From the NCBI RefSeq assembly GCF_003226565.1, contig NZ_QKOE01000005.1, forward strand, positions 46,846-110,845: a stretch of 64,000 nucleotides of DNA, in the 5' to 3' direction. Source of the stretch: Parazoarcus communis SWub3 = DSM 12120. Lineage in GTDB: Bacteria; Pseudomonadota; Gammaproteobacteria; Burkholderiales; Rhodocyclaceae. Of this stretch, positions 22,693 to 36,747 are shown piece by piece (the stretch's first letter is position 1; each line of letters begins with the position of its first letter). Below the pieces are notes generated by a model. It was not told the origin of the DNA, searched no databases, and saw nothing but the letters and a program-made list of their open reading frames with translations. The translations under genes were made by a program, and so were the position numbers.

Positions 22693-23772
22693 ATGAGCGC
22701 CCAGCGCAAGATCATCCATTGCGATTGCGACTGTTTTTACGCTGCGGTCGAGATGCGCGACGACCCGAGTCTGCGTGGCAGGCCAGTGGCGGTGGGTGGG
22801 CGTGCCGAGACCCGCGGCGTGATCGCCACCTGCAATTACGAGGCGCGTGCCTTTGGTGTGCATTCGGCAATGTCGACCGCGCGGGCGATGAAGCTGTGTC
22901 CGCAACTGGTGTTGCTGCCACCGGATTTCGAGCGGTATCGCGCGGCCTCGCGCCAGATCCTGGCCATCTACACCGACTACACACCGCTGGTCGAGCCTTT
23001 GTCGCTTGACGAGGCCTACCTCGACGTTACGGGGGTGGCGCGCTGCAAGGGGTCGGCCAGCCTGATGGCCGAGGAAATCCGTGCGCGCATTCACGCGGAA
23101 GTCGGTATCACCGCCTCGGCCGGTATCGCCCCCAACAAGTTCATCGCCAAGGTTGCCAGCGACTGGAACAAGCCCAACGGGCAGTTCGTCGTCAGGCCGC
23201 AGGATGTCGATGCCTTCGTGGCGGCCTTGCCGGTGAAGAAGCTGTTTGGTGTCGGCAAGGTGACCGCTGCGCGCCTGCAAAAGCTGGGTGCCAACACCTG
23301 TGGAGACCTGCGTTCATGGAGTCTGGCCGACCTGACCCGTGAGTTCGGCAGCTTTGGCGCCGCACTCCATCGGCTGTGCCGCGGCATCGATACGCGTGAG
23401 GTCAAGCCGGACCGCACACGCAAGTCCTTGTCGGTAGAGACGACCTACGTGACCGATCTTCCCGACCTTGCCGCCTGCCGGGCAGCCCTGCCGGCGTTGA
23501 TTGGCGAGTTCCGGCGGCGTTTCGAGCGTGCCCGTGAAGCGCGTCCGGTGCACAAGGCCGTCGTCAAGATCAAGTTTGCCGACTTTACCCAGACAACCGT
23601 CGAATGCGTGTCGAGTGCTCCCGACGAATTCGTCTGGCAGCAGTTGCTGGACGAAGGCCACGCCCGCCGCGGCAAACCGGTGCGGCTGCTGGGCGTGGGC
23701 GTGCGTTTTGCCGAAGCCGAGGCTGACGAGCCGGTGCAGATCGATCTGTTCGGGTCGGATCAGGCTCCGTAA
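22693..23772 (+). CDS. dinB: DNA polymerase IV (DinB)
   Basis: N-terminus IIHCDCDCFYAAVEMRDDPSLRGRPVAVGG. Y-family polymerase match over the full length. Confidence 0.9.
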   Translation: MSAQRKIIHCDCDCFYAAVEMRDDPSLRGRPVAVGGRAETRGVIATCNYEARAFGVHSAMSTARAMKLCPQLVLLPPDFERYRAASRQILAIYTDYTPLVEPLSLDEAYLDVTGVARCKGSASLMAEEIRARIHAEVGITASAGIAPNKFIAKVASDWNKPNGQFVVRPQDVDAFVAALPVKKLFGVGKVTAARLQKLGANTCGDLRSWSLADLTREFGSFGAALHRLCRGIDTREVKPDRTRKSLSVETTYVTDLPDLAACRAALPALIGEFRRRFERAREARPVHKAVVKIKFADFTQTTVECVSSAPDEFVWQQLLDEGHARRGKPVRLLGVGVRFAEAEADEPVQIDLFGSDQAP

Positions 23773-24852
23773 TCAGGCGACGGCCGTCCGCTGCTGCGCC
23801 AGCCCGCGACGGATCCAGGCAGCGGATTCGAGCGCGCCCTCCAGGTAGCCACCGCCATATACGGCAGTTTCAGTGCCGCCAAAATGCAGTCGTCCATTCC
23901 AGGCCGGGTCGCGCAGGACTTCGCTGCCGTAGTTCGAGTACGACAGCGAGGGGGTCAGATCCAGACGGCTACAGGTGTGCGGCTCTTTGGCCCAGTCATG
24001 ATAGTCGCGCTCGCCATTGGCAGCCTCGGCGCCGAATAGCTGCACCAGTTGGCTGGCGGCAATCATGTCCAGACCGTCGCGGAAGGCGTCGCGCTGCGCC
24101 GGGGTGAGGATCAGGAAGGCGCCCAGTGCAGCTTGCGAACTTTCGTTGGCGGCATCCCAGGTTTCGGCCAGCACCGATTGGGTGTGCTGGGTGGTGGCCG
24201 TGCCTGACAGCCCCTTGCCGCGCCAGAAGGCCTGCGGATGGCGTGAGATGAGCTTGGCCTGGCCCGCCATCCAGGTGGGGCAGTTGCGCATGGCCTGGCG
24301 GGTGGTGGCGGGCAACGTGGGGGTGAAGGCGATCTTTTCCTCGACCAGGCGTGGTGGCATGGCCAGCACGATCTGGCGTGCGGCAACGATGTGTTCGCCA
24401 TGGGGCTCGGCAAAGCGCAATTCGACATGCGTGCCACGATCGCGCACCTCGACCAGAGCATGCTCGAGGTGAAGCCGGGCACTGGGAAGGCGCGATGCGA
24501 GGGCGCCCACCAGCATGCGCATGCCGCCGTCGATGCGGCGGGCACCGCCATGGACATCGGCCTGCTCGAACGATGTCGGCTCACCACCGGCCTCTTGCTG
24601 CAGCAGGTGCTTGCCGTCCGACCACTGCGGCGAGCTCTTCAGGCCAAGGTCCTCCACCAGCCGGGTGATGCGTGGCTGCAATCCGGGCCAGTACCAGGTG
24701 GGGCCCAGATCATGACCGTCTTCAGTACAGTGGATGCGCCCGCCCAGCCGCTCACGAGCCTCGAAGAGTGCGAAGTCGCGCTTGGCGCCGTGCAGCAGAT
24801 TGGCCAGTGCCAGCCCGCACAGACCGCCGCCGATGATTGCCGTTTCAAGCAT
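23773..24852 (-). CDS. Flavin-containing amine oxidase / FAD-dependent oxidoreductase (NAD(P)-binding Rossmann)
   Basis: N-terminal IIGGGLCGLALANLL dinucleotide-binding motif. Sequence resembles amine oxidases. Its stop codon abuts the dinB stop with zero gap, in convergent orientation. Confidence 0.65.
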   Translation of the reverse strand: MLETAIIGGGLCGLALANLLHGAKRDFALFEARERLGGRIHCTEDGHDLGPTWYWPGLQPRITRLVEDLGLKSSPQWSDGKHLLQQEAGGEPTSFEQADVHGGARRIDGGMRMLVGALASRLPSARLHLEHALVEVRDRGTHVELRFAEPHGEHIVAARQIVLAMPPRLVEEKIAFTPTLPATTRQAMRNCPTWMAGQAKLISRHPQAFWRGKGLSGTATTQHTQSVLAETWDAANESSQAALGAFLILTPAQRDAFRDGLDMIAASQLVQLFGAEAANGERDYHDWAKEPHTCSRLDLTPSLSYSNYGSEVLRDPAWNGRLHFGGTETAVYGGGYLEGALESAAWIRRGLAQQRTAVA

Positions 24853-25032
24853 GGTGTGTCCCCTGGAAAGTCGTGCGCAAGATGGCAAGGGCATTGCAAG
24901 CTTTGGTCCACATGGGTTCTGCACCGGATGGGCAGGCTGGCCGTGGGGCTGGCAAGGCGATGACTGCCGCGGGGCTGTCGGATAGCCGGCAATGTGCTGC
25001 GGCTTGTGCGCTTTGCCGCAGGGGATGATTGC

Positions 25033-25656
25033 TCAGACGCGGGCGGTGGGGATGACTTGACGGAAGGTCAGATTCAGGCGTGCGCCGGAAACTGAGGGGG
25101 AGGTGGGGATGGCATGCTCCCAGTGCTGCTGAAACGGCGCGCGCATGAGTAGCAACAGGCCGGGTGGGAGTGGCAGGCGGCCGGCGTCGCCTGGCGTTCC
25201 GGGTTTCGGTCGCCAATGAAAAGACCGGGTGGCACCCAGGCTCAGAGAGGCGATGTGCGGCGCGGGGCCGAGGTCGTCCTCGTCGTCGGCGTGCCAGCTG
25301 ACATGGTCGTCGCCGTCACGATACAGGTTGGCGAGCACCGCATTGAAGGAGACTCCGCAGCATGCCTCCACGCTGGAACGCAGCGCCTGCAGCCGAGGCG
25401 TCCACGCGTGCGAATTGAGCAGTTGCTGCGCGTAGCGGTATTCCACCCCTGCATCAGCGAACCAGCACTGCAGCCGGGGCAGGGCAAAGCGCCGCCCCGC
25501 TGCGATGTAATGGCCTTCGGTCCATGGCGTTTCGGCAAGCAGGACATCGAACAGGGCCTGAGCTGCAGCGGGGTCGAGCACGCTTGCACAGGCCAGCAAG
25601 GGCTGCCCAGGCACGGGCTGCAGCGGGGGGCTCGCAGGAGGCCGGGTCGCGCTCAT
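25033..25656 (-). CDS. alkB: AlkB-family Fe(II)/2-oxoglutarate-dependent dioxygenase (nucleic-acid demethylase type)
   Basis: WHADDEDDLG and HAIPTS...RLNLTFRQV match the E. coli AlkB HxD...H triad and the NLTFRQ C-terminus. Its ATG overlaps the stop of the upstream 1741-aa gene (ATGA). Confidence 0.8.
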   Translation of the reverse strand: MSATRPPASPPLQPVPGQPLLACASVLDPAAAQALFDVLLAETPWTEGHYIAAGRRFALPRLQCWFADAGVEYRYAQQLLNSHAWTPRLQALRSSVEACCGVSFNAVLANLYRDGDDHVSWHADDEDDLGPAPHIASLSLGATRSFHWRPKPGTPGDAGRLPLPPGLLLLMRAPFQQHWEHAIPTSPSVSGARLNLTFRQVIPTARV

Positions 25657-28600
25657 CGGCTTGCCGGCTCCTTGCCCGGGAGGTGGCCTTCCATGCGCTG
25701 CAGCAGGTTGCCAATACGCTTCATGTCTTCCCACATGGCGTGATCCATGCGCATCTTGCGGTAAGTAGCGGTGACCAGCGGGGTCAGTACCTTGTCGTAG
25801 ACTTCCTGCATCTCGCGTAGCGCCGCAGTAAAGCCGCTGGTGTCAGGGGCGCCGACTTCGATGCGGGGCTGCAGCTTGTCCAGGCTGGCTGACATCGCGT
25901 CGAGGCCAGCGCGCACCGCAGCCCCACTGGGCAGGGTGGCGTTCAGGTTGTCGACCGCGCGGGCAATGTCCAGCAAGGTGGCTGCGATCCGTGTGCTGCC
26001 GTCGGCTTCGTCGCCACCCAGTTTGCGTCGGCGGATGAACTCTTCGCGGATGGCCTGCCAGCGTGCGGACTCGTCCTCGGTCTGGCTGCCCAGCAGGGCA
26101 GAGAGCTTCAGCAGGTTCTCTTCGGCACCGGTCGTCAGGGTCTGGGCCTCGCCCCGATAGTGGTCGCGCAGCAGGGCGTCGAGTTCGGCGTCGCGCATCG
26201 AGGCGTTGATACGTCCGGCCAGCTTGGTCATGTTGCGGTAGCTGCCCTGCAGTTTGAACGGCGGCTCGGTACGGTAGGCATCTTGCTGGGCGGCGGATTC
26301 GATGTAGGCCAGGTTGACCTTGAGCAGCAGGTCGCGGGCGCGGAACAAGCGTCGCAGCAGCGCGGTGAGTTCGTTGAGTTCCGCGCCGCTGTAGCCGTGA
26401 CTGAACGTGCTGGCGGCGACCTCTTCGCCTTCGGCCATGCGTACCAGCAGGTGCACATCCTTGGGGTCGCGCGATGCGAGCGGTTGCAGCACGGGATTGG
26501 CGGTGAGGCAGTTCTCGATGTAGGACAGGCCGAACAAGGCTTCCCGTCCTGACAGCACATCGCCCAGGTTGTAGATGTCGGCGCGGTTGGCGAGCATGTC
26601 CGGAATCTTGAAGACGTCGCCGGATTCAGTGTAGGGGTTGCCGGCCATGACGACAGCGAAACGTTTGCCGCGCAGGTCGCAGGTGACAGGTTCGCCATTG
26701 ACGACTGCTTCGATCCGTCGTGTGCCATCGGCCAGGGCGATGAACTTCTGCAGGAACTCGGGGTTGGTGTGCTGGATGTCGTCCAGGTAGAGCATGACAT
26801 TGTTGCCCATTGCCAAGCCGAGATTGAGCTTGAGCAATTCCTGCCGCGCTGCGCTGTGGCTGGCGCTGGCGGGGTCGAGTGCGGTGATGTCGTGACCGAG
26901 CGCCGGGCAGTTGATGCGGACGAAGATCATGCCCAGGCGGTCGGCAATGTACTCCATCAAGGTGGTCTTGCCGTAGCCTGGCGGTGAGATCAGCAGCAGC
27001 AGGCCCATGCGGTCGCTGCGGCTGCCTTCACCCGCGGTGCCGATCTGTTTCGACAGATTGTCGCCGACGATGGGCAGGTAGACCTCGTCGATCAGCCGGT
27101 TGCGGACGAAGGACGACAGTGGCTTGGCCTGGAACTGGTCGAGTTGCAGGCGCTTTTTCTCGTTGGCCACAATCTCGAGGCGCAGCGCCTGCAACTGCTC
27201 GAAGGCTGGCACGAACTGTTCGCGGTGCTGCAGGTAGCGCAGTCGCAGCTCGTTGAGGTTCAGTTGCAGGGCGCCATCGACGATGAGGGGATGTTCGCCC
27301 AGCAGACCGTCGACACGGCGGTCGAGGTCGGCGTTGACGCGCACGCGCTCGATATCGAGTGCGATGCGGGTGGCCGCATCGGCAATCCAGGCGGTGGCGG
27401 CAGTCTGCCCGTGGCAGAACGCGGAGACCCAGGCGCGTGCCAGCTGCCAGCGTTCTTCCGGCGGTGCGGCGGCCAGGTCGCGCTGCCAGTCGGCCAGCTC
27501 GCCCCGTTGTTCAAGCCGGCGGAGCAGGTCATCGGCCAGGTCGGCACCGGCGCCGGAGATGACCCAGGCTTCACCGCCACGTGGCACGGCCAACTGGCGA
27601 ACCAGATAGCGTGCCCCTTCGGTGGCGACCTGGCCCGCCGTGTCGCCTTTGGCGTGGAAGCCAAACTTTGGCGCAAAACGGCTCAGCGCTTCGGTCGTCT
27701 CGCGCTCGAGCTGTGCCAGGCTGTCAGCCGCGTCGAACAGCTCGACCATGCGTGTGGCCGCACGTGCCCGGCGCAGCAGCGATTCGCGTTCGCTGTCGAA
27801 GGCCTGGTGGGACCAGTGGAGCAGGGCGAGGGCGCGCGCCTCCGGGCCGTAGACCAGCAACCCGGCGTCGGCTTGCATGCTGGCCAGGGCTTGCAGCAGA
27901 CGGGCGGCATCCTGGTCGTGTACGCCTTTCTGGTAGCCCTCGTGATAGCGGTCGGCGGCGAAGCGCCTCAGGGCTTCGAGCAATTGGGGCAGGCCGTCCG
28001 GACCCTCGGCGCAGCAGGTCTGCAGCGCCTGCCAGCTCAGCGGACCACGATTGTGTTCGATTGCCTCGAGCACGCTGGCGGCGAGATATTCGCCGCGATA
28101 AAGCTGATCGCTCTCCGAGGGCAGGGGGCTGTCCCACCAGGGGCGCAAGGCGGCCAGGCGATCGTCGGCAACCGGGGCGTAGTAGTCGGTGCCGGTCAGG
28201 TGGAACCACATCTCGCCATTGCGCGGCAGCAGGGTCAGGTCGAGTACCTGACGGTTGACGGTGAAGGCATGGCGGCCGAAACGCAAGGTGTTGCCGTCTT
28301 CGGCCACCAGTTCGCGTCGGTCCCGTACTGCGCGGATGGCCTGGTCGTGCGCAGTGCGCAGCCGGGTATCCAGATCGTCGGCTGCCACTGCGGCGCCGAT
28401 TGCGCGTAGGTCGGCGATCTGTTTGCGCAGCTTGGTGATCAGCGCATCGGCGGCAAAGTAGCTATGGACCTGTTCGATTTCACGCAACTGGGCCACGCGG
28501 CGCGCGATGCCGTCGACAATACGGCCGGCGGCTTCGGTCAGCGCCTGGCTGCGCCGCTGACGGGCGTCGAGCAGGCTCTGACGTCGTGCCGACACGGCTT

Positions 28601-30878
28601 CGTACACCGCTTCGCGCTTGCTTGCGATGTCGGCGAGAAAAGCATCATGGTCGGCAAAGCGGCCTTCGAGTTCTTCGAGTTGTGCGAGCAGGCGGGTCAG
28701 TGCTTCGTCGCACTTCTCCGGGGTGTCGGCCAGTTCGAGCGCATTTTCGACGGCTTGTCCGAACAGTTTGAACTGGGCACCGAACTCGGCTGCGGCCTCG
28801 GTTGCGCCAAGGGAACGTCTGCGGTTGCGGCCTTCGGCACGCAGACGGTTGATTTCGGCATACACCGAGGAGATGCCGTCGAGGATGCGGGTGCGTACCA
28901 CGGCGTCGCCGCCAGGCAGGTTGCCAAGCTGCTCGGTCAATAAGTCGAGCCCGGCCGCGGTCTGGTCTAGTTCGCCGAGCAGGGCGGCAATGTCCTCGCT
29001 GGTGGTGGCGTTTGGCAGTGCGGCGCTCAGCCGGGCAATGTCGCGGTGATGGCGGTCGAAGGCGTGCTCGTCGGCGAGAAAGCGCAGCGCGCGTTCGCCG
29101 ACACTGGTCTGTGCGGCAGCGGCCTCGTCGTCCATTTCCGCAATCTGCGGCAGGTCGGCATAGCGCAGGGCCTTGAGCATCTGCAGCCGGCCACGCTGTT
29201 CGCGCAGGCGGCCCAGGGCCTGGACGAAATCGTCTGGCTGCTGCCATAGCATGCTGGCAATATCGGTGAGCAGCGCACGCTGCTGGGCTTGGGCGTCGGC
29301 CAGTGCGCGGGCGGTGTCGCGACGGATGCTTTCGACCTTTTCAAACTCGTCCAGCGTGCTGCGCGCACCGTCGGCAATGGCCTTGACGTCGGCCGCCAGA
29401 CCGACGGCTTCGGTGGCGTCCAGCCAGAAATAGCTGTCAGCGACTCGCCCGCATTGGCGAATGATTTCTTCGTAGGCGCTGCGGGTGGGGGCCTGCTCGC
29501 TGACCGCGCGGGCGATGGACGACAGTTCGGAGATACCCCTGACCAACTCGGCATTGCCGATACGGCCGAAGAAACCTTGTGCAACCCGGGTGGCTGCATG
29601 TTCGTCGCTGGCAAAGGGGGTCTGCCACAGCTGCATCGGATGGTTGCGCGTGGGCTCGTTGTCTTCCGCCTGGAAGACCAGCATCCGCCCATCCTCGAAG
29701 CGGGCATAGCCGTTGCAGACGATGGGGGTGCCGAGCGTTTTTTCGATCAGGTTGTAGGAGAACAGCGCATAGTGGCCAACGCCCGGGCGGTAGAACACGT
29801 AGAGCACGTCTTCGCCATTGGGGGCTCGCAGCATGCGCTTGAAGCGCAATTCACCGACCATCTCGGCAGGCATGTCGAAGCGCTTGTATTCGCCTGACTG
29901 AAGGTAATAGCCACCCGGGAAGATGATGCCGTGGTCTTCCGGCAGCTGCATGCAGGAGCGGCCGATGGCGTCGATGCGAACGACTTTCTGCACCCGGGTG
30001 TTATAGACCAGGTAGCGCTCATCCTTTTCGCGATAGGGGCGTATCCGCAGCAGGATCAGCGAACCCAGGCGGGCAAAGGCGATGTCGGCATCGGCCAGCG
30101 CCTGATTGCGATCTTCCACCGGTTCGCTGTAGATGCCCAGCCCCGACTCGGTGTTGTTCTCGATCTTGACGGTCAGGTCGCCGCCGACGGTCTCGACGAA
30201 AATGGTGTCGAGAATATTGATGTGAGGGTGCTTGCCACCAATGTGATCTGCCCGCGAGGCCACCGTCCACTCAAAGTCGTGCGTCGGTGGCAGCGCAATG
30301 TCGCGCTCGCCGCGGTTGTCGATGTAGTGAATCGTGCCGTCGTTTTCCACCGCCCAGCGGAATACCCGCAGGTCGTGCAGTTGCTGGCCGATCTGGAAGG
30401 CTGCAAGCAGTTTGTGCTGGTGCACCCGCAGCTGGATCAGGCTGGCTTGCTTGTAATAGGCGTACAGTTCGCGAAAGTCGGCGACGAACCGTGGGTCGTC
30501 CAGAAAACTGCCGGCCAGCGGGAGGGCTTCGAGTTCGTCGGCCCCGTCCTGTTCGGACAGGCGGTAGAGCGCAAACACATCGCTGACTGCGGTTTCCTTG
30601 CGCAGCCCGATGAAGACGTTGAAGCCAAACAGCAGGTGTTCGCCGATACGAACAATGTCGCGCGCGTTGCAGTTGTTTTCGGTGCGCGCGCGGGTGCGTA
30701 GCAGCAGTTGCTGTTCGGCGCGACCAAACTCAGCAATCCTCGCGTCATTGAGCGCACGGATCTTGCCCTGCAGGCTGGCCCCCTGTTCGGCCAGCCGCCG
30801 TTTCAGCAGCTCGTAGCTACCGCTGTCTGCGACCAGGGCTTCGGTGGCGTCAGGCGGGGTGGAAGTCTTGTCGGACAT
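25653..30878 (-). CDS. Large 1741-aa multidomain protein: N-terminal ~430 aa beta-rich region of unknown fold, ~850 aa alpha-helical/coiled-coil body, C-terminal AAA+ ATPase domain (Walker A GYGKTT at aa 1301-1306, Walker B VMLYLDDIQH, sensor-1 AVVMAGNPY) and a ~180-aa helical tail. Proteins of this kind are often generically labelled DNA repair ATPase.
   Basis: One continuous ORF with codon usage typical of this genome. The ATPase block LLLISPPGYGKTTLMEYIADRLGMIFVRINCP aligns to classic AAA modules such as p97 D1 ([31 protein letters not shown]). Co-operonic with flotillin upstream and alkB downstream. Confidence 0.8.
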   Translation of the reverse strand: MSDKTSTPPDATEALVADSGSYELLKRRLAEQGASLQGKIRALNDARIAEFGRAEQQLLLRTRARTENNCNARDIVRIGEHLLFGFNVFIGLRKETAVSDVFALYRLSEQDGADELEALPLAGSFLDDPRFVADFRELYAYYKQASLIQLRVHQHKLLAAFQIGQQLHDLRVFRWAVENDGTIHYIDNRGERDIALPPTHDFEWTVASRADHIGGKHPHINILDTIFVETVGGDLTVKIENNTESGLGIYSEPVEDRNQALADADIAFARLGSLILLRIRPYREKDERYLVYNTRVQKVVRIDAIGRSCMQLPEDHGIIFPGGYYLQSGEYKRFDMPAEMVGELRFKRMLRAPNGEDVLYVFYRPGVGHYALFSYNLIEKTLGTPIVCNGYARFEDGRMLVFQAEDNEPTRNHPMQLWQTPFASDEHAATRVAQGFFGRIGNAELVRGISELSSIARAVSEQAPTRSAYEEIIRQCGRVADSYFWLDATEAVGLAADVKAIADGARSTLDEFEKVESIRRDTARALADAQAQQRALLTDIASMLWQQPDDFVQALGRLREQRGRLQMLKALRYADLPQIAEMDDEAAAAQTSVGERALRFLADEHAFDRHHRDIARLSAALPNATTSEDIAALLGELDQTAAGLDLLTEQLGNLPGGDAVVRTRILDGISSVYAEINRLRAEGRNRRRSLGATEAAAEFGAQFKLFGQAVENALELADTPEKCDEALTRLLAQLEELEGRFADHDAFLADIASKREAVYEAVSARRQSLLDARQRRSQALTEAAGRIVDGIARRVAQLREIEQVHSYFAADALITKLRKQIADLRAIGAAVAADDLDTRLRTAHDQAIRAVRDRRELVAEDGNTLRFGRHAFTVNRQVLDLTLLPRNGEMWFHLTGTDYYAPVADDRLAALRPWWDSPLPSESDQLYRGEYLAASVLEAIEHNRGPLSWQALQTCCAEGPDGLPQLLEALRRFAADRYHEGYQKGVHDQDAARLLQALASMQADAGLLVYGPEARALALLHWSHQAFDSERESLLRRARAATRMVELFDAADSLAQLERETTEALSRFAPKFGFHAKGDTAGQVATEGARYLVRQLAVPRGGEAWVISGAGADLADDLLRRLEQRGELADWQRDLAAAPPEERWQLARAWVSAFCHGQTAATAWIADAATRIALDIERVRVNADLDRRVDGLLGEHPLIVDGALQLNLNELRLRYLQHREQFVPAFEQLQALRLEIVANEKKRLQLDQFQAKPLSSFVRNRLIDEVYLPIVGDNLSKQIGTAGEGSRSDRMGLLLLISPPGYGKTTLMEYIADRLGMIFVRINCPALGHDITALDPASASHSAARQELLKLNLGLAMGNNVMLYLDDIQHTNPEFLQKFIALADGTRRIEAVVNGEPVTCDLRGKRFAVVMAGNPYTESGDVFKIPDMLANRADIYNLGDVLSGREALFGLSYIENCLTANPVLQPLASRDPKDVHLLVRMAEGEEVAASTFSHGYSGAELNELTALLRRLFRARDLLLKVNLAYIESAAQQDAYRTEPPFKLQGSYRNMTKLAGRINASMRDAELDALLRDHYRGEAQTLTTGAEENLLKLSALLGSQTEDESARWQAIREEFIRRRKLGGDEADGSTRIAATLLDIARAVDNLNATLPSGAAVRAGLDAMSASLDKLQPRIEVGAPDTSGFTAALREMQEVYDKVLTPLVTATYRKMRMDHAMWEDMKRIGNLLQRMEGHLPGKEPASR

Positions 30879-30947
30879 GGGTTTCCGTGGGGTTCAGTTG
30901 GCCGGGCGCGGCACGGGGGCGGGCACGATGTCCCGCCCACTGTTCGA

Positions 30948-33053
30948 TCAGGATTTGCGCAGGCTGTCGAGCAGGGTATTCAAGGCGGCGCGCTGGGTGT
31001 CGTCGCCGTCGCGCATGACCTTGCCCAGCAGGGCGGCAACCGAAAGGTTCTGCAACTCACCAGCAGAGCTGCCCAGGGCGCCGATGATGCCGCGCAGGTC
31101 ACCGACCATATCGCGCTGACCGTCGAGATGATCCTTGAGACCAATCTGAAGGGTGTTGCTCTTGGCAATGGCGCCGTCGATGCCCTTGCCGACCGAGAGC
31201 GCATTGACGAAGCGCTCGAAGTAGTCGCCCTGGCCACCAACGATGTCGATGCGTGCATTGGCCAGTGCGGTGCCCAGCACGTCGGCTTGTTCGCGGGCGA
31301 TACCCGTCTGTGCGTCGATGGCTTTCAGGGTCTCGATGTGGGCGTTCTCGAGACGCATGCGGAACTCCTCGTGCGCCCGGGTCTCCTCGCTCATGGCCTT
31401 CATGGCTTCGAACTTTTCCGCCAGGCCACGTGCTTCGGCCTGGAAGCGGGCCGCGATGACTTCCGCTTCGGCGCGGCCGGCCTTCACGGTGGCGTCGGCA
31501 TCGGCGGAGCGAACCTGGACGTCGGCCAGGCCCAGCTTTTCCTTGCCCAGTGCCTCGGCTTCCATGCGTGCCTGAAGGGCGTCGGCCTCGGCATGGCCGT
31601 ACTTGGTCACGGCTTCGGCTTCGGCGATCTTGACCTTGGCGTCGACCAGGCCTTGTTTTTCCTTGGCGTCGGCACTGACCAGCAGCACTTTTGCTTCGGC
31701 CAGGCCTGGGGCGGCGGTGATTGCCTCGATGCCTTCGGCTTCACGCTTCTTGGCCTCTGCTTCCTTTTCCGAGACCTTCAGCCGTGCTTCGGCCAGGGTG
31801 AGCTCTTCTGCGGCACGGTGACGGGCGCGGCGTTCCTGTGCTTCGGCGGCCTTGACCTCCATGATCATCTTTTCCTCGGCCTGACCTTCGGCAAGGATGA
31901 CGGTGGATTTCTTGGTGCGATCAGCATCGGCGACCACACGCAGTTCCTTGATGGCTTCTTCCTGTTCGGCCACGGTACGTTCGACCACGATGCGTTCGCG
32001 GATGACGTCGGCAATCGCCTTCTTCTGCACTTCGACGGCGCGTTCCTTGTCGATCTGTTGCAGGGTGACTTCCTTCTCGCGATCGACGATTTCGAGTTCG
32101 CGGGCGCGGGTGACCTTTTCTTCCTCGATGGCAACCGCACGCTTGCGGTTGTTTTCGGCCACTTCGCGTTCCCGTTGCACGTTTTCCTGCTGCACGGTGA
32201 TGGACTGCTCGGCCTGCAGCCGGGCCAGTTCGGCCTTGGTGTGTTCCTCGGCGCGGATGCGGGCCGTTTCGGCCTCTTCGCGCGCCCGGACCGAGGCAAT
32301 CTCGCGCTGCTGACGGGCTTCTGCGTCGGCTTGCTGACGTTCGAGCTCCAGCAGGGTTTCGCGGGTCTCGACGTCCTTCTTCTTGATCTGCATTTCCTCG
32401 TTGCGGCGCAACTCGTTGGTGCGCACGCTTTCGGTGGCCGTCAGCTCGGTGATCTTCTTGATCCCCTGGGCGTCGAGGATGTTGCTGGGATCAAGCCGCG
32501 ACAGCGGCGTCTGTTCGAGGTAGTCGATCGCCGCGTCTTCGAGCACGTAGCCAGAAAGGTCGTCGCCGATCTGGCGGATGATCTCGTCGCGGAAACGGTC
32601 GCGCGCCTGGTAGAGCTCGACGAAATCCATCGCCTTGCCGACGGTCTTGAGCGCCTCTGAGAACTTGGCCGAGAACAGCTCTTCAAGCGTCTCGTGGTTG
32701 GATGCCCGCTCGCAGCCGATACCCTGCGCCACCTTGAGCACGTCTTCGGCAGTCTTGTTGACCCGCACGAAGAACTTGACCTTGATGTCGGCCCGGATGT
32801 TGTCCTGGCAGATCAGCCCCTCATTGCCCGTGCGGTCGATTTCCACCGTCTTGAGGGCAATATCCATCATCTCGGCCTTGTGGATGATGGGGTACACCAT
32901 GCGCCCGGTGAAGGTCACCTCCGGTTCGCTGCGCAAGGTATTGACGATCATCGCGTAACCCTGTTCCACCTTCTTGTAGAACTTGGCGAACATCGCGAAC
33001 AAGCCGAACAGCAGGAAGGCCAGGATGCCGACGGCAATCAGGATGGGTTCCAT
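30948..33053 (-). CDS. yqiK: Flotillin-family SPFH/Band-7 protein (YqiK-like), 701 aa with a long C-terminal coiled-coil extension
   Basis: N-terminal TM segment, an SPFH domain, and an extended EA/KR-rich flotillin repeat region. Confidence 0.85.
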   Translation of the reverse strand: MEPILIAVGILAFLLFGLFAMFAKFYKKVEQGYAMIVNTLRSEPEVTFTGRMVYPIIHKAEMMDIALKTVEIDRTGNEGLICQDNIRADIKVKFFVRVNKTAEDVLKVAQGIGCERASNHETLEELFSAKFSEALKTVGKAMDFVELYQARDRFRDEIIRQIGDDLSGYVLEDAAIDYLEQTPLSRLDPSNILDAQGIKKITELTATESVRTNELRRNEEMQIKKKDVETRETLLELERQQADAEARQQREIASVRAREEAETARIRAEEHTKAELARLQAEQSITVQQENVQREREVAENNRKRAVAIEEEKVTRARELEIVDREKEVTLQQIDKERAVEVQKKAIADVIRERIVVERTVAEQEEAIKELRVVADADRTKKSTVILAEGQAEEKMIMEVKAAEAQERRARHRAAEELTLAEARLKVSEKEAEAKKREAEGIEAITAAPGLAEAKVLLVSADAKEKQGLVDAKVKIAEAEAVTKYGHAEADALQARMEAEALGKEKLGLADVQVRSADADATVKAGRAEAEVIAARFQAEARGLAEKFEAMKAMSEETRAHEEFRMRLENAHIETLKAIDAQTGIAREQADVLGTALANARIDIVGGQGDYFERFVNALSVGKGIDGAIAKSNTLQIGLKDHLDGQRDMVGDLRGIIGALGSSAGELQNLSVAALLGKVMRDGDDTQRAALNTLLDSLRKS

Positions 33054-33116
33054 GTAATCCCCTTCAGGTCATTGCCGGTGGTGCCGGCGGGTCGATGGTG
33101 ATGCGTGATGTTGTGT

Positions 33117-33734
33117 TCAGTCCGCAGCCTGCACGCGGTAGCGCGCATTGGCGGGGTCGTAGTCGATGACGATGGCGCTGGCGCCGCGGGTGAGGGTGTT
33201 GGGTGTGTCCGCAACCACACGGATGTTGTACGTGCTGCCACGGCTATCCACCTCGGCACGGCCGAAGCGTTCGTCGACGCTGTTGGTCAGGATGCGGCAG
33301 CGTTGGCCGACGAGTTCGGCGTTGGTGGTGGCGCCGTGAGTGACGAAGAGGCGGCGCATTGGGCGTACCGCGCGGGCTGCAATCGGCAGCGCCAGGGCAA
33401 AGGCGCCAAGCAGTACCGCGGTGCCGGCGGCGAGACGAAGCGGGACCGTGGGTACCAGTGGCAGCAGCCACAGTGCGGCCAGGCTGCATAAGGTCCAGGC
33501 GATCAGGGTCAGCAGACTGACGACGACCGAAAACGGTACCCCGCCCAGCCCAAAGGCCACCAGGTAGCTGGCAAGGGTGCCAATGTCGCCTACATCGCCG
33601 TCGAGTTCGAGGCCGCCATGTTCGAAGTCGACCAGACCGAACATCGCCAGGAGCCAGTAACACAGTACGATACCGAGCAAGGTGCTGTAGATCGCGGTCG
33701 GGTAGGCAAAGGCGACTGCGGCGAAACTGCTCAT
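33117..33734 (-). CDS. yqiJ: YqiJ/NfeD-like membrane protein (DUF1449; TM helices plus C-terminal OB-fold), the usual partner of flotillin
   Basis: Four TM helices followed by a C-terminal beta domain (RILTNSVDERFGRAEVDSRGSTYNIRVV). Directly upstream of the flotillin gene. Confidence 0.7.
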   Translation of the reverse strand: MSSFAAVAFAYPTAIYSTLLGIVLCYWLLAMFGLVDFEHGGLELDGDVGDIGTLASYLVAFGLGGVPFSVVVSLLTLIAWTLCSLAALWLLPLVPTVPLRLAAGTAVLLGAFALALPIAARAVRPMRRLFVTHGATTNAELVGQRCRILTNSVDERFGRAEVDSRGSTYNIRVVADTPNTLTRGASAIVIDYDPANARYRVQAAD

Positions 33735-33777
33735 GAACGCTCCCTCGTGCGTCGGATGCCGCAATATGCGGCGGGGT

Positions 33778-34107
33778 TCAGGGCCGTGCCAGGCCTTCGG
33801 CGAACTGGATCAGTTCGCGCGTGACCCGCTCCTTGATCGCCAGGCGGTCATTTGCATCCAGGCCAAAGCGCTGCGCCAGGGCGTTGTAGTCGGCCTGGGT
33901 CAGCGAGACGGTCAGGCGCGGACGCTTGGGGCGGTGATTGACCTGCAGACCAAGAACCTTGCGGATCTGGTCCGAGGTGGACAGGTTGCCTTCGAATGCC
34001 GCGCGGCGCACCGCCTCCAGTACGGTGGCCTCGACATCGAAAGCCACCTGTACGGCCCGGATGGCTTCATCCGAGCCTTGCCAGCGTGGCGGCTTGACGG
34101 CGCTCAT
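33778..34107 (-). CDS. Small soluble protein with two tandem ribbon-helix-helix-like repeats (candidate single-chain RHH DNA-binding regulator)
   Basis: Two roughly 45-aa repeats, each a beta-strand (RAVQVAFDV / RLTVSLTQ) followed by two helices. ATGA overlap with the upstream pspA-like gene. No TM helix. Confidence 0.4.
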   Translation of the reverse strand: MSAVKPPRWQGSDEAIRAVQVAFDVEATVLEAVRRAAFEGNLSTSDQIRKVLGLQVNHRPKRPRLTVSLTQADYNALAQRFGLDANDRLAIKERVTRELIQFAEGLARP

Positions 34108-34808
34108 TGGCCTTCAGCGTCGGTCTTGCGTGCGCGGATGCGCTCCATCACCCGGCGCGCACGCTCGGCGTCGCCGCCAATGCCTGCTTCGGCCAGCTTG
34201 ATTTCCAGCGCCCGGGTGCCGGTTTCCTTGTCCAGCGATTCTGCCGCCGCCATGCGGTCGGCCAGCTCTTCATGCCGGCGCTTGATGCGGTCGAGCGACT
34301 CACGCGCATTGAGCAGCTTCGAGCCACTCGCCCCGATGTTGTCGGAGATCGAACGCGTGGCCTTGTAGACACTCTCGGTGGTGCGGGCGATGGCGACTTC
34401 GCGTTCGTGCTCGCGGACCTTGGCTTCGGCGCTCTTGATCAGGTCTTTAAGTTTGCCAACCTGCAAGGCGTAGTCGGCATGCACGCGCGATTGCTCTTCG
34501 AGTTGCTGCTCGGTTTCTGCAATCTTTACGGCGACCTCTTCGGCCAGTGCCTCCTTGCCCTTGCCGAGGGCTTCTAGCGCCAGGTCTTCCAGCCGCAGGG
34601 CTTCCGCGCGGATGCGCTCGATCTCGCGGGCGCTTTGCATTTCCTTGGCCATGACACCGGTCAGTTCGCTCTTTGCCTTCAGGATGGCATTGCGGGCGTC
34701 GATGATTTCCTGCTCGTAGATGCGTGTCGCGTTGGCATCGACCACGCTCTCACCCAGTTCCCGTGCGCTGCCGCGCAGCAGGGTCAGCATCTTTCCGATC
34801 ACGCTCAT
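34104..34808 (-). CDS. PspA/IM30/Vipp1 family protein (YjfJ-like; ESCRT-III fold)
   Basis: 234 aa, coiled-coil, sequence resembles PspA/YjfJ. 11 bp downstream of the DUF2170 gene. Confidence 0.8.
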   Translation of the reverse strand: MSVIGKMLTLLRGSARELGESVVDANATRIYEQEIIDARNAILKAKSELTGVMAKEMQSAREIERIRAEALRLEDLALEALGKGKEALAEEVAVKIAETEQQLEEQSRVHADYALQVGKLKDLIKSAEAKVREHEREVAIARTTESVYKATRSISDNIGASGSKLLNARESLDRIKRRHEELADRMAAAESLDKETGTRALEIKLAEAGIGGDAERARRVMERIRARKTDAEGQ

Positions 34809-34819
34809 GTTCGGCTCCT

Positions 34820-35236
34820 TCAGTTCAGGTAGTGGGCAAGCGCATCGAGGGCATCGAGTGCGTTGTCGCTCAGGGCTGCCACATCGTGGGCGATGTCTTC
34901 GACCCGGGCATCGGCGGCGAGGGCGCCGAACAGCACATAGTGCTCATTGACCCGCCCAAACGAAGACAGCGGAATGGACGGATTGAGGTCGAGCAGGGCT
35001 TCGAGCAACTCGGTACGCGTTTCGCCGCGGACTTCGGCTTCGGTCCACAGGTAGCAGATGCAAAGCGTCTGCGCCTCTGAGGCGGTAATGAAGATGGGTA
35101 GTTCCTCGCGCCCACCGATGACCACCTGGATGACCGGCACCGAACCGGGGATCGGCTGCAGGCTGATCGACGCACCGCCGAGGCGGGCCGTCAGCATGAC
35201 ATCGAGTCCGGCGATCTGCTCTTGTAGCGATTTCAT
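34820..35236 (-). CDS. YjfI-like DUF2170 protein, first gene of the operon
   Basis: 138 aa. A GAGGGGG RBS precedes the ATG at 35236. The YjfI-YjfJ (DUF2170-PspA) pairing is the same as in the E. coli yjfIJ operon. Confidence 0.6.
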   Translation of the reverse strand: MKSLQEQIAGLDVMLTARLGGASISLQPIPGSVPVIQVVIGGREELPIFITASEAQTLCICYLWTEAEVRGETRTELLEALLDLNPSIPLSSFGRVNEHYVLFGALAADARVEDIAHDVAALSDNALDALDALAHYLN

Positions 35237-35278
35237 CCTTTCCCCCTCTTAATGTTTAGGTCGATTGACGACACTGCC

Positions 35279-35307
35279 AATCTAGATGTTGTGACATAAA
35301 ATGTCAA
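35279..35307 (-). promoter_or_regulatory. Sigma-70-type promoter for the yjfI-pspA-flotillin-ATPase-alkB operon: -35 TTGACA, 17-bp spacer, -10 TAGATT
   Basis: Read on the minus strand: TTGACA (35307..35302), 17 nt, TAGATT (35284..35279). It lies about 45 nt upstream of the ATG, and the -35 element is embedded in the palindrome. Confidence 0.55.
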
Positions 35308-35320: not shown

Positions 35321-35619
35321 CAATTGCTTCCAGCTGAAGCGTGAGCGCATGCGCGACGGATTATGCCTTCGTCTTTGGGATTTGCGCTATGAGAAGTGGA
35401 TGAAGCCGACAGGCTGCATGCACCTGCATAGACGCAATGTCGCGCTTTGACGGGATGGTGTGCTGTGCCAGCAAGCCATGCTCTCCCATGACGATCCATC
35501 CTGCGGGCTTCTAGGTCGGGAGGTGGTCGTGATTTGTGGCGTGAATCATGATGCCTTGCCGCACATGCCAAAGCCGATTAGGCTTGAACAGGGCGCTGAC
35601 ACGGGAAGGAGCACGGGTG

Positions 35620-36183
35620 ATGGGTGAAGCTTTGGAATCCGGTTTGTTGAACCGCAAGGCTTACCTTGAGTGGGAAGCCGGACAGGTGGAAAAACACGAA
35701 TATGTGGCTGGCGAGGTGTTCGCGATGGTTGGTGCGCGGCGGGAACACGTGCTGGTCGCAGGGGGGCTGTACGCGAGGTTGAGAGCGCAACTGAAGGGGA
35801 CGCGCTGCCAGGTTTTTGTCTCTGACATGAAGCTCTTCGTTGCGGAAGCTGACGCCTACTTTTATCCAGACGTGATGGTCAGTTGCGACGAAGGTGACCG
35901 CCGTGCCGAGCTGGCAATCGAGCATCCTTGCCTGGTGGTGGAGGTATTGTCCGAGGGTACGGCGGAATACGATCGAGGGGCAAAGTTCGCGGCCTATCGC
36001 AAACTACCGGCCTTGAGCGAGTACCTGCTGGTTGATATCGGAGCCCGTCGCCTGGAGCTGTTCCGGCGTCAGGCTGATGGCTGGTTGATGACCGAGTCTG
36101 TGGCGGGCATGCCGCCGTTGCAATTGCGTAGCGTGGATTGCACGCTGTCTGTCGACGAGGCCTTTGAAGACCTCGTCGATTGA
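35620..36183 (+). CDS. Uma2-family endonuclease (DUF820, PD-(D/E)xK-like putative restriction endonuclease)
   Basis: 188 aa. GGAGG RBS. The motifs PDVMV...ELAIEHPCLVVEVLSEGTAEYDRGAKFAAY match the Uma2 family. Confidence 0.65.
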   Translation: MGEALESGLLNRKAYLEWEAGQVEKHEYVAGEVFAMVGARREHVLVAGGLYARLRAQLKGTRCQVFVSDMKLFVAEADAYFYPDVMVSCDEGDRRAELAIEHPCLVVEVLSEGTAEYDRGAKFAAYRKLPALSEYLLVDIGARRLELFRRQADGWLMTESVAGMPPLQLRSVDCTLSVDEAFEDLVD

Positions 36184-36195
36184 AGCCCGCCAGCG

Positions 36196-36747
36196 TCAGG
36201 CGTTCTTGCGTTTCTGCCACAGCACGTCGCCACGGCCCTCCGCGCGGTTGAGTACGCGGCCAAGCACGAACAGCAGGTCGGACAGGCGGTTCAGATACTG
36301 GCGCGGGCCGTCATTCACCGCTTCTTCCAGCGCCAGTGCGACCAAGGCGCGTTCGGCACGCCGGCAGACGGTACGGGCATGGTGGGCGAGGGCCGCGGCG
36401 CGGGTGCCGCCGGGCAGGATGAAGTCCTTCAGCGGCTCGAGCGGTTCGTTGAAGCTGTCGAGTTGTTCTTCGAGGTGCGTGACCTGCTTCTCGGTGATCA
36501 TGCTCATGCCCGGAATGCATACTTCACCACCAAGGTCGAACAGATCGTGCTGTACGTCGGTCAGCAGTTTGCATACTGCTTCGGGCAGCGCTTCGCACAG
36601 CAGCAAGCCGATGATGGCGTTGACCTCATCCACTTCGCCGAGCGCATGGATGCGCAGGCTGTTCTTGGACACCCGCTTGCCGTCGCCGAGGCCGGTGGTG
36701 CCGGCGTCGCCGGTGCGGGTGTAGATCTTGGAGAGGCGGTGTCCCAT
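36196..36747 (-). CDS. ATP:cob(I)alamin adenosyltransferase, PduO/MMAB type
   Basis: 183 aa. RTGDAGTTGL and the C-terminal helical bundle are PduO-type motifs. Confidence 0.8.
   Translation of the reverse strand: MGHRLSKIYTRTGDAGTTGLGDGKRVSKNSLRIHALGEVDEVNAIIGLLLCEALPEAVCKLLTDVQHDLFDLGGEVCIPGMSMITEKQVTHLEEQLDSFNEPLEPLKDFILPGGTRAAALAHHARTVCRRAERALVALALEEAVNDGPRQYLNRLSDLLFVLGRVLNRAEGRGDVLWQKRKNA

What the first reader, a model, noticed from the sequence alone, without database searches (positions are those of the whole stretch)
25033..25656. Bona fide AlkB demethylase translationally coupled (ATGA) to the giant ATPase gene
The AlkB ATG (25656-25654, minus strand) shares A-T-G-A with the TGA of the 1741-aa gene, which argues for co-translation rather than chance adjacency. 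AlkB chemistry (oxidative dealkylation of bases in DNA or RNA) has no obvious link to a PspA/flotillin membrane module. Possible explanations are repair of alkylation damage under the same stress regulon, RNA repair as with viral AlkB domains, or a non-nucleic-acid substrate.
Basis: partly seen in the sequence, partly recalled or inferred. Interest (0 to 1): 0.55.

Follow-up and report, generated by a model that had tools for sequence, protein, structure and literature searches.

The report
AlkB gene abutting a membrane-stress operon
A normal DNA/RNA dealkylation repair gene (alkB) overlaps the end of a giant ATPase gene by four bases, but only because a known membrane-stress operon was inserted just upstream of it in one Azoarcus lineage, so the linkage is an ordinary accident of gene order.

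Summary
On the minus strand, ATG 25656-25654 of a 207-aa AlkB-family gene overlaps TGA 25655-25653 of the 1741-aa ATPase gene, and an AAGGAG lies 11 nt upstream. The protein is a real AlkB-family dioxygenase of the ALKBH2/ALKBH3-like kind, not the E. coli AlkB kind.

The proposed functional link is not supported.
- None of 67 informative loci with ATPase homologues (45-74% identity) carries an alkB.
- None of 80 metagenomic loci with AlkB homologues carries the ATPase.
- The recurrent gene right after the ATPase elsewhere is a phospholipase-D-like (HKD) gene, found in 34 of 80 loci. This matches the published description of the operon.
- Other Azoarcus species share the backbone cobA-alkB-amine oxidase-dinB-aroG-msrPQ without the module. 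In strain L1K30, alkB lies 31 nt after cobA.
- The window (Azoarcus communis) has 10.5 kb, comprising Uma2 plus the PspA-flotillin-ATPase operon, inserted between cobA and alkB. One sister taxon shares this junction.
- Four other 4-bp overlaps in the window include pairs of unrelated genes.

Verdict: lineage-specific operon piggy-backing, of low interest. In passing, I found a palindrome (TTGACAT-N3-ATGTC) at the operon promoter that is conserved in 55 of 55 loci.

The parts
25033..25656 (-). alkB-like gene, 207 aa, an ALKBH2/ALKBH3-type Fe(II)/2-oxoglutarate dioxygenase
   Evidence: PF13532 at E 9e-31. Family profile against PDB: ALKBH3 5.5e-56, ALKBH2 6e-50, E. coli AlkB 0.04-0.07. Invariant N110, Y112, H122, D124, H181, R193, R199. 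Predicted structure has pLDDT 91 and TM 0.82-0.86 to ALKBH2/3. 99% identical to Azoarcus communis AlkB.
25653..25656 (-). ATGA start/stop overlap between the ATPase gene and alkB
   Evidence: Read directly from the sequence. The same junction is present in A. communis WTVJ01000001 and in the sister taxon L091/L092.
25668..25673 (-). Shine-Dalgarno-like AAGGAG, 11 nt upstream of the alkB ATG, within the last codons of the ATPase gene
   Evidence: Read from the sequence. AAGGA is retained in the sister taxon.
25653..30878 (-). Giant AAA+ ATPase, 1741 aa (DUF3686 + DUF7902 + AAA), labelled 'DNA repair ATPase' in databases
   Evidence: Pfam hits. More than 5000 homologues. [quoted passage not shown]
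30948..33053 (-). 701-aa protein that sources name flotillin family / YqiK-like
   Evidence: No Pfam, NCBIfam or PDB sequence hit. Homologues are named 'flotillin family protein', 'Band 7 protein' or 'YqiK' by NCBI, UniRef and JGI. A homologue lies upstream of the ATPase gene in 75 of 80 loci, usually adjacent; 4 of the other 5 have under 300 nt of upstream sequence.
33117..33734 (-). 205-aa protein of the module, function unknown
   Evidence: Gene call. Conserved upstream of p701 in 71 of 80 loci. No Pfam hit.
33778..34107 (-). 109-aa protein of the module, overlapping the PspA stop by 4 nt
   Evidence: No Pfam hit. Found in 55 of 80 loci.
34104..34808 (-). PspA/IM30-family protein (YjfJ-like)
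   Evidence: PF04012 at E 4e-31.
34820..35236 (-). DUF2170 (YjfI/BacA-like, CesT/Tir superfamily), first gene of the operon
   Evidence: PF09938 at E 5e-28. PMC11237479 and PMC10948618.
35279..35319 (-). Sigma-70-like promoter (TTGACA-17-TAGATT) overlapped by two palindromes, ACATAAAATGT and ACATTTTATGT. This is the putative regulated promoter of the operon that now ends in alkB.
   Evidence: promoter scan. (these are the only two sites in 64 kb). (the motif is present in 55 of 55 related loci).
35548..36183 (+). Uma2-family gene (putative restriction endonuclease), part of the block present between cobA and alkB in this lineage only
   Evidence: PF05685 at E 4.5e-33. GC3 is 0.67 against 0.76-0.81 for the neighbours. 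Absent from all 80 module loci.
36196..36747 (-). Cobalamin adenosyltransferase-like gene (cobA-like), the ancestral upstream neighbour of alkB
   Evidence: PF01923. In Azoarcus sp. L1K30 its stop codon lies 31 nt before the alkB start.
23773..24852 (-). Short flavin amine oxidase (359 aa), the conserved downstream partner of alkB in the Azoarcus/Nitrogeniibacter clade
   Evidence: PF01593 and PF13450. PDB hits to MAO and putrescine oxidase. The alkB-AmOx pair is seen, and in L094.
22693..23772 (+). dinB (DNA polymerase IV), convergent with the amine oxidase gene; part of the conserved backbone
   Evidence: NF002677 at E 5e-163. Synteny.

Best explanation
alkB here is an ordinary ALKBH2/ALKBH3-like (bacterial group 1B) nucleic-acid dealkylase, and it sits at its ancestral chromosomal position. 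The ancestral backbone is alaS / cobA-like / alkB / flavin amine oxidase / dinB / aroG / msrPQ. In the Azoarcus communis lineage, a 10.5-kb block was inserted between cobA and alkB. The block consists of a Uma2 gene plus the already described DUF2170-PspA-p109-p205-flotillin-like-giant AAA+ ATPase operon, without its frequent PLD-like last gene. The 3' end of the insert is flush with alkB, so the ATPase reading frame ends on a TGA that shares ATGA with the alkB start codon. As a result, alkB has lost its own upstream region. It is now most likely transcribed by read-through from the operon promoter at about 35.3 kb and translated by termination-reinitiation or by the SD inside the ATPase gene's end. 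This is operon piggy-backing with no functional connection to the membrane module. What is shown: the overlap, the family assignment, the absence of the linkage elsewhere, the conserved backbone, and the position of the insertion. What is inferred: the direction of the event (insertion rather than loss), co-transcription, and translational coupling.
For: Forward test. 80 genome loci carry ATPase homologues at 45-74% identity. The upstream module genes are conserved in them, but none of the 67 loci with at least 1 kb downstream has an AlkB, amine oxidase or DinB homologue.

Reverse test. 80 metagenomic loci carry AlkB homologues at 36-63% identity, and 72 of them have at least 300 nt upstream. 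None has the ATPase.

Usual downstream gene. A PLDc_2 (HKD) gene follows the ATPase gene in 34 of 80 loci, most starting within about 40 nt of its stop codon. In at least five loci it overlaps the ATPase stop by 4 nt. PMC11237479 states this for the same operon and never mentions AlkB.

Synteny.
- A. olearius BH72/DQS4 and A. indigens have cobA, a NifX-like gene on the opposite strand, alkB, AmOx, then dinB, aroG and msrPQ, with no module.
- Azoarcus sp. L1K30 has alkB 31 nt after cobA.
- Nitrogeniibacter has cyt-b5, alkB, AmOx.
- Another orthologue (61% identity) overlaps by ATGA an unrelated DUF2944 gene behind gcvTHP.

Base rate. The window has four other 4-nt overlaps. They include DarP/MoCF_biosynth and SurA/PdxA/RsmA, which join unrelated functions. 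About 15% of prokaryotic gene pairs are co-directional and overlapping.

Other points. alkB codon composition matches its neighbours, with GC3 0.755. No sigma-70-like promoter is predicted in the ATPase 3' end, and no terminator can lie between the two genes.
Against: The same ATGA junction is kept in a sister taxon whose AlkB is only 77% identical. The arrangement has therefore persisted through some divergence, which could reflect selection rather than inertia. No expression data are available. The direction of the event rests on parsimony over five related taxa. No insertion scars such as flanking repeats were found.
Confidence: 0.8

Rival explanations
1. Adaptive recruitment in the A. communis clade. 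After the juxtaposition, placing alkB under the envelope-stress promoter became useful. For example, it could repair etheno or alkyl adducts produced by lipid peroxidation products whenever the membrane is damaged. On this view the 4-nt overlap is maintained by selection.
For: The junction and the SD-like motif are retained in a sister taxon. alkB is under purifying selection there, with dN/dS 0.20 and all catalytic residues kept. Bacterial AlkB proteins of related groups repair etheno adducts (PMC2790896). The operon has a strongly conserved operator-like site, so alkB would come under a specific regulon.
Against: The arrangement is seen in one clade only: 0 of 67 and 0 of 80 loci elsewhere. 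Retention in two close relatives, whose flanking genes are 95-99% identical, is what common descent alone predicts. alkB is the least constrained gene of the region.
Confidence: 0.1
2. No translational coupling at all. The true alkB start would be a downstream in-frame GTG (25614) or TTG (25599), or alkB would be transcribed from a promoter inside the 3' end of the ATPase gene. The ATGA would then be a by-product of an open frame in a GC-rich genome.
For: The first ~15 residues are not conserved in length or sequence among homologues, and A. olearius AlkB starts at the position of residue 12. The model's pLDDT is 68 for residues 1-10. The 11-nt spacing between AAGGAG and the ATG is on the long side, judged from my own knowledge.
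Against: ATG 25656 is the only ATG before residue 171. No purine-rich motif precedes the GTG or TTG. The sister taxon keeps an ATG at the same place with the same overlap, although the following codons differ. Public gene calls use this ATG. No promoter-like site was found.
Confidence: 0.12
3. AlkB is a genuine but rare alternative effector of the module. It would replace the PLD-like (HKD) enzyme at the same operon position, implying that the module acts on nucleic acids, as the database name 'DNA repair ATPase' suggests.
For: alkB occupies exactly the slot, and uses the same 4-nt overlap, that the PLD-like gene has in other genomes. HKD enzymes include nucleases (my own knowledge). The databases call the ATPase a 'DNA repair ATPase'.
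Against: Synteny shows that alkB was at this chromosomal site before the module arrived. The closest ATPase relatives examined (the 73% identical L002 and L003) have neither PLD nor alkB; at 74%, L001 has only 87 nt downstream and is uninformative. No literature supports the 'DNA repair' name: a search for DUF3686 found no papers. The only published analysis links the operon to membrane dynamics.
Confidence: 0.03

Closest known systems
Bacterial group 1B AlkB proteins / human ALKBH2 and ALKBH3 (van den Born et al. 2009, PMC2790896)
   Same: The protein has full-length similarity to these (profile E 5.5e-56 and 6e-50; 33-36% identity; TM 0.82-0.86). It has the HxD...H iron triad, the RxxxxxR 2OG motif, and the lid residues equivalent to ALKBH2 R110, Y122 and F124 (here R61, Y73 and Y75). 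It also comes from a betaproteobacterium, as is typical of group 1B.
   Different: The position equivalent to the ALKBH2 base-flipping finger F102 is alanine (A53) in the Azoarcus clade, as in the ssDNA/RNA-preferring ALKBH3 type. More distant homologues have Phe there. Activity and substrate have not been tested.
E. coli AlkB (group 1A, ada-alkB operon)
   Same: Same superfamily, same fold and same catalytic motifs.
   Different: The relationship is distant: profile E 0.04-0.07, 19-23% identity, TM 0.61-0.68, and no NCBIfam AlkB model is hit. The gene is not next to ada or any other alkylation-repair gene. Its conserved neighbour is a flavin amine oxidase.
CesT/Tir(DUF2170)-PspA-band-7/flotillin-AAA+ ATPase operon of Proteobacteria (Ravi et al. 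2024, PMC11237479; related to the P. aeruginosa bac cluster PA3732-PA3729, PMC10948618)
   Same: The upstream genes of the window form this operon: DUF2170, PspA/YjfJ-like, small proteins, a flotillin/YqiK-like protein, and a giant AAA+ ATPase. I independently recovered the PLD(HKD) gene reported there 'in some Proteobacteria', in 34 of 80 loci.
   Different: AlkB is not a described or recurrent component. In this window the PLD gene is missing and alkB abuts the ATPase gene.
Mixed-function operons with overlapping genes, e.g. surA-pdxA-rsmA(ksgA)
   Same: Genes of unrelated function are joined by 4-nt start/stop overlaps and co-transcribed. The example itself is present in this window (53942 and 54940).
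   Different: That arrangement is widely conserved among Proteobacteria (my own knowledge), whereas ATPase-alkB is confined to one Azoarcus clade.

Membership tests
AlkB family of Fe(II)/2-oxoglutarate dioxygenases (PF13532) | Significant match to the family profile over the whole domain | tested here: met
   PF13532 at 108 bits against a cut-off of 31.2, covering residues 25-199 of 207.
AlkB family of Fe(II)/2-oxoglutarate dioxygenases (PF13532) | HxD...H iron-binding triad and RxxxxxR 2-oxoglutarate-binding motif | tested here: met
   H122-A-D124, H181, and R193...R199 in RLNLTFR are invariant in 15 homologues. They align with the corresponding ALKBH2 residues.
AlkB family of Fe(II)/2-oxoglutarate dioxygenases (PF13532) | Double-stranded beta-helix core with an N-terminal nucleotide-recognition lid | tested here: met
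   The AlphaFold2 model has pLDDT 91.1 and pTM 0.87. The best PDB matches are ALKBH3 and ALKBH2 bound to DNA, with TM 0.82-0.86 over about 200 columns.
AlkB family of Fe(II)/2-oxoglutarate dioxygenases (PF13532) | Oxidative dealkylation of 1-meA, 3-meC or etheno bases in DNA or RNA | not testable with these tools
   This needs an enzyme assay or complementation of an E. coli alkB mutant.
E. coli-type AlkB (group 1A) | Closer to EcAlkB than to other AlkB groups, with a group 1A nucleotide-recognition lid | tested here: not met
   Profile E for EcAlkB is 0.04-0.07, against 5.5e-56 for ALKBH3. Only the C-terminal core aligns. No NCBIfam hit. TM 0.61-0.68.
ALKBH2/ALKBH3-like bacterial AlkB (group 1B) | Highest similarity to ALKBH2/3, including the lid residues equivalent to R110, Y122 and F124 | tested here: met
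   R61, Y73 and Y75 are invariant. The group definition comes from PMC2790896. The aromatic residue at the F102 position is absent (A53).
PspA-flotillin-AAA+ ATPase operon (as a component) | Recurrent co-occurrence with the operon across genomes | tested here: not met
   0 of 67 ATPase loci have alkB. 0 of 80 AlkB loci have the ATPase. The description of the operon does not mention AlkB.
Translationally coupled gene pair | Start/stop overlap of 4 or 1 nt, with an SD in the upstream gene's end | tested here: met
   ATGA at 25653-25656 and AAGGAG at 25668-25673. Both features are kept in the sister taxon.
Translationally coupled gene pair | Downstream translation depends on upstream translation | not testable with these tools
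   This needs reporter fusions with a premature stop codon in the ATPase gene.

The most novel reading that the evidence does not exclude
In the Azoarcus communis clade, alkB has been captured by the envelope-stress PspA-flotillin-AAA+ operon and retained there by selection. Repair of alkyl or etheno base damage, for example from lipid-peroxidation products, would then be co-induced with membrane repair from the operon's conserved operator-controlled promoter. AlkB would take the operon slot that a PLD-like enzyme holds elsewhere.
Probability: 0.07. Interest if true: 0.4.

Novelty: already known. Interest (0 to 1): 0.12.

Why it matters
It matters mainly as a caution. A 4-nt ATGA overlap shows that two genes are packed into one transcription and translation unit. 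It does not show that they work together. Here comparative genomics shows that the overlap was created when a known membrane-stress operon landed next to a resident repair gene. The database label 'DNA repair ATPase' for the giant ATPase should not be read as support for a link with AlkB. No literature support was found for that name, and the ATPase gene's recurrent neighbours are membrane-associated proteins and a PLD-like enzyme. If the minority reading were true, and alkB had been adaptively placed under an envelope-stress regulon, it would be a small but neat example of regulatory rewiring by gene-order change. The by-product that may be more useful is the 13-bp palindrome conserved at the operon promoter in 55 of 55 loci. 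It gives a handle on the still unknown regulator of this PspA-family system.

Tried and rejected
- A literature search for 'DUF3686' found no papers, so the origin of the 'DNA repair' label could not be traced.
- I aligned the DNA of the alkB 5' region from A. communis, its sister taxon, A. olearius, A. indigens and L094, to find the exact insertion boundary. Upstream of the HPLL codons the alignment is not trustworthy. Comparing ATPase C-terminal tails shows native homology up to about ...RMEGHLPG, so the junction lies within about 20 nt of the alkB ATG. It cannot be placed more precisely.
- I looked for flanking direct or inverted repeats around the 10.5-kb block. The longest shared word has 8 nt, which is a chance level.
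- I looked for a remnant of the PLD-like gene in the window. There is no tblastn hit better than E 0.16. The idea that the alkB N-terminal extension derives from the PLD start is untestable on about 10 codons, so I dropped it.
- I considered renalase as the identity of the downstream 359-aa flavoprotein. PDB hits are to MAO and putrescine oxidase instead.
- The promoter and terminator scan gave no more sites than shuffled controls, apart from the operon promoter. It cannot exclude an internal alkB promoter.
- My first greedy ORF clustering undercounted the PLD gene (16 loci), because spurious opposite-strand ORFs won. A tblastn search corrected the count to 34.
- The dinB proximity could have been a possible 'alkylation tolerance cluster'. 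It holds only as local synteny within Azoarcus, and dinB is absent near all 80 distant AlkB loci.

Full report
**The observation.** On the minus strand the sequence reads ...GGC AAG GAG CCG GCA AGC CGA TGA GCG.... TGA 25655-25653 ends the 1741-codon frame that starts at 30878. ATG 25656-25654 opens a 207-codon frame that ends at 25033. An AAGGAG (25673-25668) lies 11 nt upstream of the ATG. The window is Azoarcus communis or a near-identical strain. The AlkB protein is 99% identical, and the ATPase 100% identical, to those of A. communis WTVJ01000001, whose public gene calls show the same 4-nt overlap.

**What the small gene is.** The 207-aa product matches PF13532 at E 9e-31. No NCBIfam model is hit.
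- Against PDB sequences, the single protein finds only human ALKBH2 and ALKBH3, at about 1e-33.
- A profile of 15 homologues scores ALKBH3 at 5.5e-56, ALKBH2 at 6e-50, ALKBH1 at 6e-4, and E. coli AlkB at only 0.04-0.07.
- N110, Y112, H122, D124, H181, R193 and R199 are invariant in the family alignment. They align with the iron and 2-oxoglutarate ligands of ALKBH2.
- An AlphaFold2 model (pLDDT 91, pTM 0.87) superposes on DNA-bound ALKBH2 and ALKBH3 with TM 0.82-0.86. For E. coli AlkB the TM is 0.61-0.68.

In the classification of van den Born et al. 2009, this corresponds to group 1B. That group is ALKBH2/3-like and typical of beta- and gammaproteobacteria, and its tested member repaired DNA in all assays (PMC2790896). 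So this is a bona fide AlkB-family enzyme, but not 'AlkB proper'. The residue equivalent to the ALKBH2 intercalating finger F102 is Ala here. That hints at a preference for single-stranded substrates. This last point is inference only.

**What the upstream genes are.** The 1741-aa protein carries DUF3686, DUF7902 and an AAA domain. Upstream of it lie a 701-aa protein that sources name flotillin/YqiK family, a 205-aa protein, a 109-aa protein, a PspA/IM30 protein and a DUF2170 protein. This is the operon described by Ravi et al. [quoted passage not shown] AlkB is not mentioned (PMC11237479). It is related to the P. aeruginosa bac cluster (PMC10948618).

**Is the linkage conserved? Forward test.** A scan of one genome per species returned 80 loci with ATPase homologues at 45-74% identity, from Beta- and Gammaproteobacteria.
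- The upstream genes are conserved. A p701 homologue is found in 75 of 80 loci, and PspA in most.
- None of the 67 loci with at least 1 kb downstream contains an AlkB, amine oxidase or DinB homologue at E 1e-5 or better. Relaxing the threshold to E<1 gives a single faint hit about 9 kb away on the other strand.
- The gene that does recur downstream of the ATPase gene is a roughly 230-aa PLDc_2 (HKD) protein. It is present in 34 of 80 loci, most starting within about 40 nt of the ATPase stop codon. In at least five loci it overlaps the ATPase stop by 4 nt.
- The window has no trace of this gene.

**Reverse test.** 80 metagenomic loci carry AlkB homologues at 36-63% identity, and 72 of them have at least 300 nt upstream. 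None has the ATPase, and one (the closest, at 63%) has the amine oxidase.

**Where alkB comes from.**
- In A. olearius BH72 and DQS4 and in A. indigens, the orthologous alkB (71% and 67% identity) lies in the order alaS(-), cobA-like, NifX-like(-), alkB, flavin amine oxidase..., dinB(-), aroG(-), with msrPQ following in A. olearius. There is no PspA module.
- In Azoarcus sp. L1K30 the order is alaS(-), cobA, alkB, amine oxidase, dinB(-)..., aroG(-)..., msrPQ. The alkB start lies 31 nt after the cobA stop.
- The window has exactly this backbone: alaS 37591-40212, cobA 36196-36747, alkB, amine oxidase 23773-24852, dinB, aroG and msrPQ.
- The difference is that 10,539 bp (25657-36195) lie between cobA and alkB. 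They carry a Uma2 gene and the six-gene module.
- The site is variable between species: nothing in L1K30, a NifX-like gene in A. olearius, and DsbD plus a redoxin plus a NifX-like gene in A. indigens.
- Nitrogeniibacter has cyt-b5, alkB, amine oxidase.
- A 61% identical orthologue overlaps by ATGA an unrelated DUF2944 gene behind gcvTHP.

So alkB has no fixed upstream partner. Its only recurrent neighbour in this clade is the downstream amine oxidase. The module arrived next to it in the A. communis lineage.

**The junction.** ATPase C-terminal tails are variable in relatives. The window's tail is among the shortest and is homologous up to about ...RMEGHLPG. That places the junction within about 20 nt of the alkB ATG. 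No flanking repeats were found, and the DNA alignment of the alkB leader is inconclusive.

**A sister taxon.** Logan contigs L091 and L092 have the same ATPase-ATGA-alkB-amine oxidase-dinB arrangement. The juxtaposition therefore predates their split.
- The flanking genes are 95-99% identical between the two, with dN about 0.02, dS 0.32-0.52 and dN/dS 0.04-0.06.
- alkB is only 77% identical, with dN 0.16, dS 0.82 and dN/dS 0.20.
- The divergent block coincides with alkB plus the intergenic region behind it, at 25690-24900.
- The changes are symmetric between the two lineages, 18 against 13 derived.
- alkB is thus under purifying selection but is the least constrained gene of the region. Alternatively, one lineage exchanged its allele. 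I could not decide between these two readings.

**Does ATGA argue for function?** The same window has 4-nt overlaps at PspA/p109, DarP/MoCF_biosynth, SurA/PdxA and PdxA/RsmA. Three of these join unrelated functions. About 15% of gene pairs in most prokaryote groups are co-directional and overlapping (PMC6728339). The overlap therefore indicates shared expression, not shared function.

**Expression.** The only sigma-70-like promoter found between 22.0 and 36.5 kb is at 35307-35279(-), upstream of the DUF2170 gene. The terminator-like hits do not exceed the shuffled controls. The most likely situation is that alkB is now read through from the operon promoter and translated by reinitiation. This is inferred, not shown.

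**Verdict.** The gene is an already annotated member of a known family, and the operon has already been described. The adjacency is a lineage-specific consequence of an insertion. A minority reading remains, with a probability of about 0.07-0.1. On that reading, the new regulatory context is advantageous and is maintained by selection.

**Seen in passing.** Two palindromes, ACATAAAATGT (35294-35304) and ACATTTTATGT (35309-35319), overlap the operon promoter. They are the only such sites in the window. The motif is present 19-127 nt upstream of the DUF2170 gene in all 55 related loci that include that region, against a background of 0.06 per kb. Its consensus is TTGACAT-N3-ATGTC. It is absent upstream of alkB in the other species. 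It looks like the operator of an unidentified regulator of this PspA-family operon.

Noticed in passing
window 35294-35319 (and 55 related loci, L001-L080): Two 11-nt palindromes (ACATAAAATGT and ACATTTTATGT, 15 nt apart) overlap the sigma-70-like promoter of the DUF2170-PspA-...-ATPase operon. They are the only such sites in the 64-kb window. The motif (consensus TTGACAT-N3-ATGTC) occurs 19-127 nt upstream of the DUF2170 gene in 55 of 55 related loci, against a background of 0.06 per kb. It looks like the operator of an unknown regulator.
   Followed up: partly
L008-L077, immediately downstream of the ATPase gene (e.g. L013:15154-15843, L064:15303-16007): A roughly 230-aa PLDc_2 (HKD) protein with a helical N-terminal region follows the giant ATPase gene in 34 of 80 loci, and in at least five it overlaps the ATPase stop by 4 nt. 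This agrees with Ravi et al. 2024. The gene is absent from the window and from the closest relatives examined, L002 and L003.
   Followed up: yes
window 24900-25690 compared with L091/L092: alkB plus the intergenic region behind it is a sharp divergence hot-spot between A. communis and a sister taxon. Nucleotide identity is 60-85% there against 90-98% in the flanks. AlkB is 77% identical at the protein level against 95-99% for the neighbours, with dS 0.82 against 0.32-0.52, and the derived changes are symmetric. The cause could be allelic replacement by recombination or weak constraint. This was not resolved.
   Followed up: partly
window 23773-25656; L081, L084, L092, L094, L174, L175: alkB is followed, after a gap of 107-240 nt, by a short (about 360 aa) flavin amine oxidase in every member of the Azoarcus/Nitrogeniibacter clade examined (7 taxa). 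This is so in only 1 of 80 more distant AlkB loci. It is the only conserved partner of this alkB, and its function is unknown.
   Followed up: partly
L148 and 13 other metagenomic loci (e.g. L148, about 560 nt after the alkB start): In 14 of 80 distant AlkB loci, the gene right after alkB is a DAO-family FAD-dependent oxidoreductase (PF01266). This is a second, unrelated flavoprotein downstream of alkB. It may simply be clade synteny, since glutathione reductase-like and holB-like genes recur with it.
   Followed up: no
window 25657-36195; L081, L084, L174: The cobA-alkB interval is a variable cargo site in Azoarcus. It is 31 nt in strain L1K30. It holds a NifX-like gene in A. olearius, DsbD plus a redoxin plus a NifX-like gene in A. 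indigens, and Uma2 plus the PspA module in A. communis. No flanking repeats were found.
   Followed up: partly
window 35548-36183 (+): The Uma2-family (putative restriction endonuclease) gene next to the module has a lower GC3 (0.67) than all its neighbours (0.76-0.81). It is absent from all 80 module loci, so it was probably acquired separately.
   Followed up: no
window 30948-33053 (-): NCBI, UniRef and JGI name homologues of the 701-aa protein 'flotillin family' or 'YqiK'. Yet it has no significant Pfam, NCBIfam or PDB sequence match, and none is precomputed for its homologues. The flotillin assignment therefore rests on more sensitive methods than those used here.
   Followed up: partly
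window 25653-30878 (-): The database name 'DNA repair ATPase' (Pfam DUF3686 'ATPase involved in DNA repair') has no support that I could find. There are no papers on DUF3686, and the gene context is membrane-related throughout.
   Followed up: partly
window 18850-18853, 53942-53945, 54940-54943: There are 4-nt start/stop overlaps between DarP and a MoCF_biosynth protein, and in surA-pdxA-rsmA. They serve as internal examples of overlaps between functionally unrelated genes.
   Followed up: yes
L093:334-6138: In one 75% identical ATPase homologue (Logan SRR22388185), a 185-aa protein with a faint Zn-ribbon hit sits between the flotillin-like gene and the ATPase gene. The downstream gene is an OmpH-family gene on the opposite strand. 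This is a variant operon layout.
   Followed up: no
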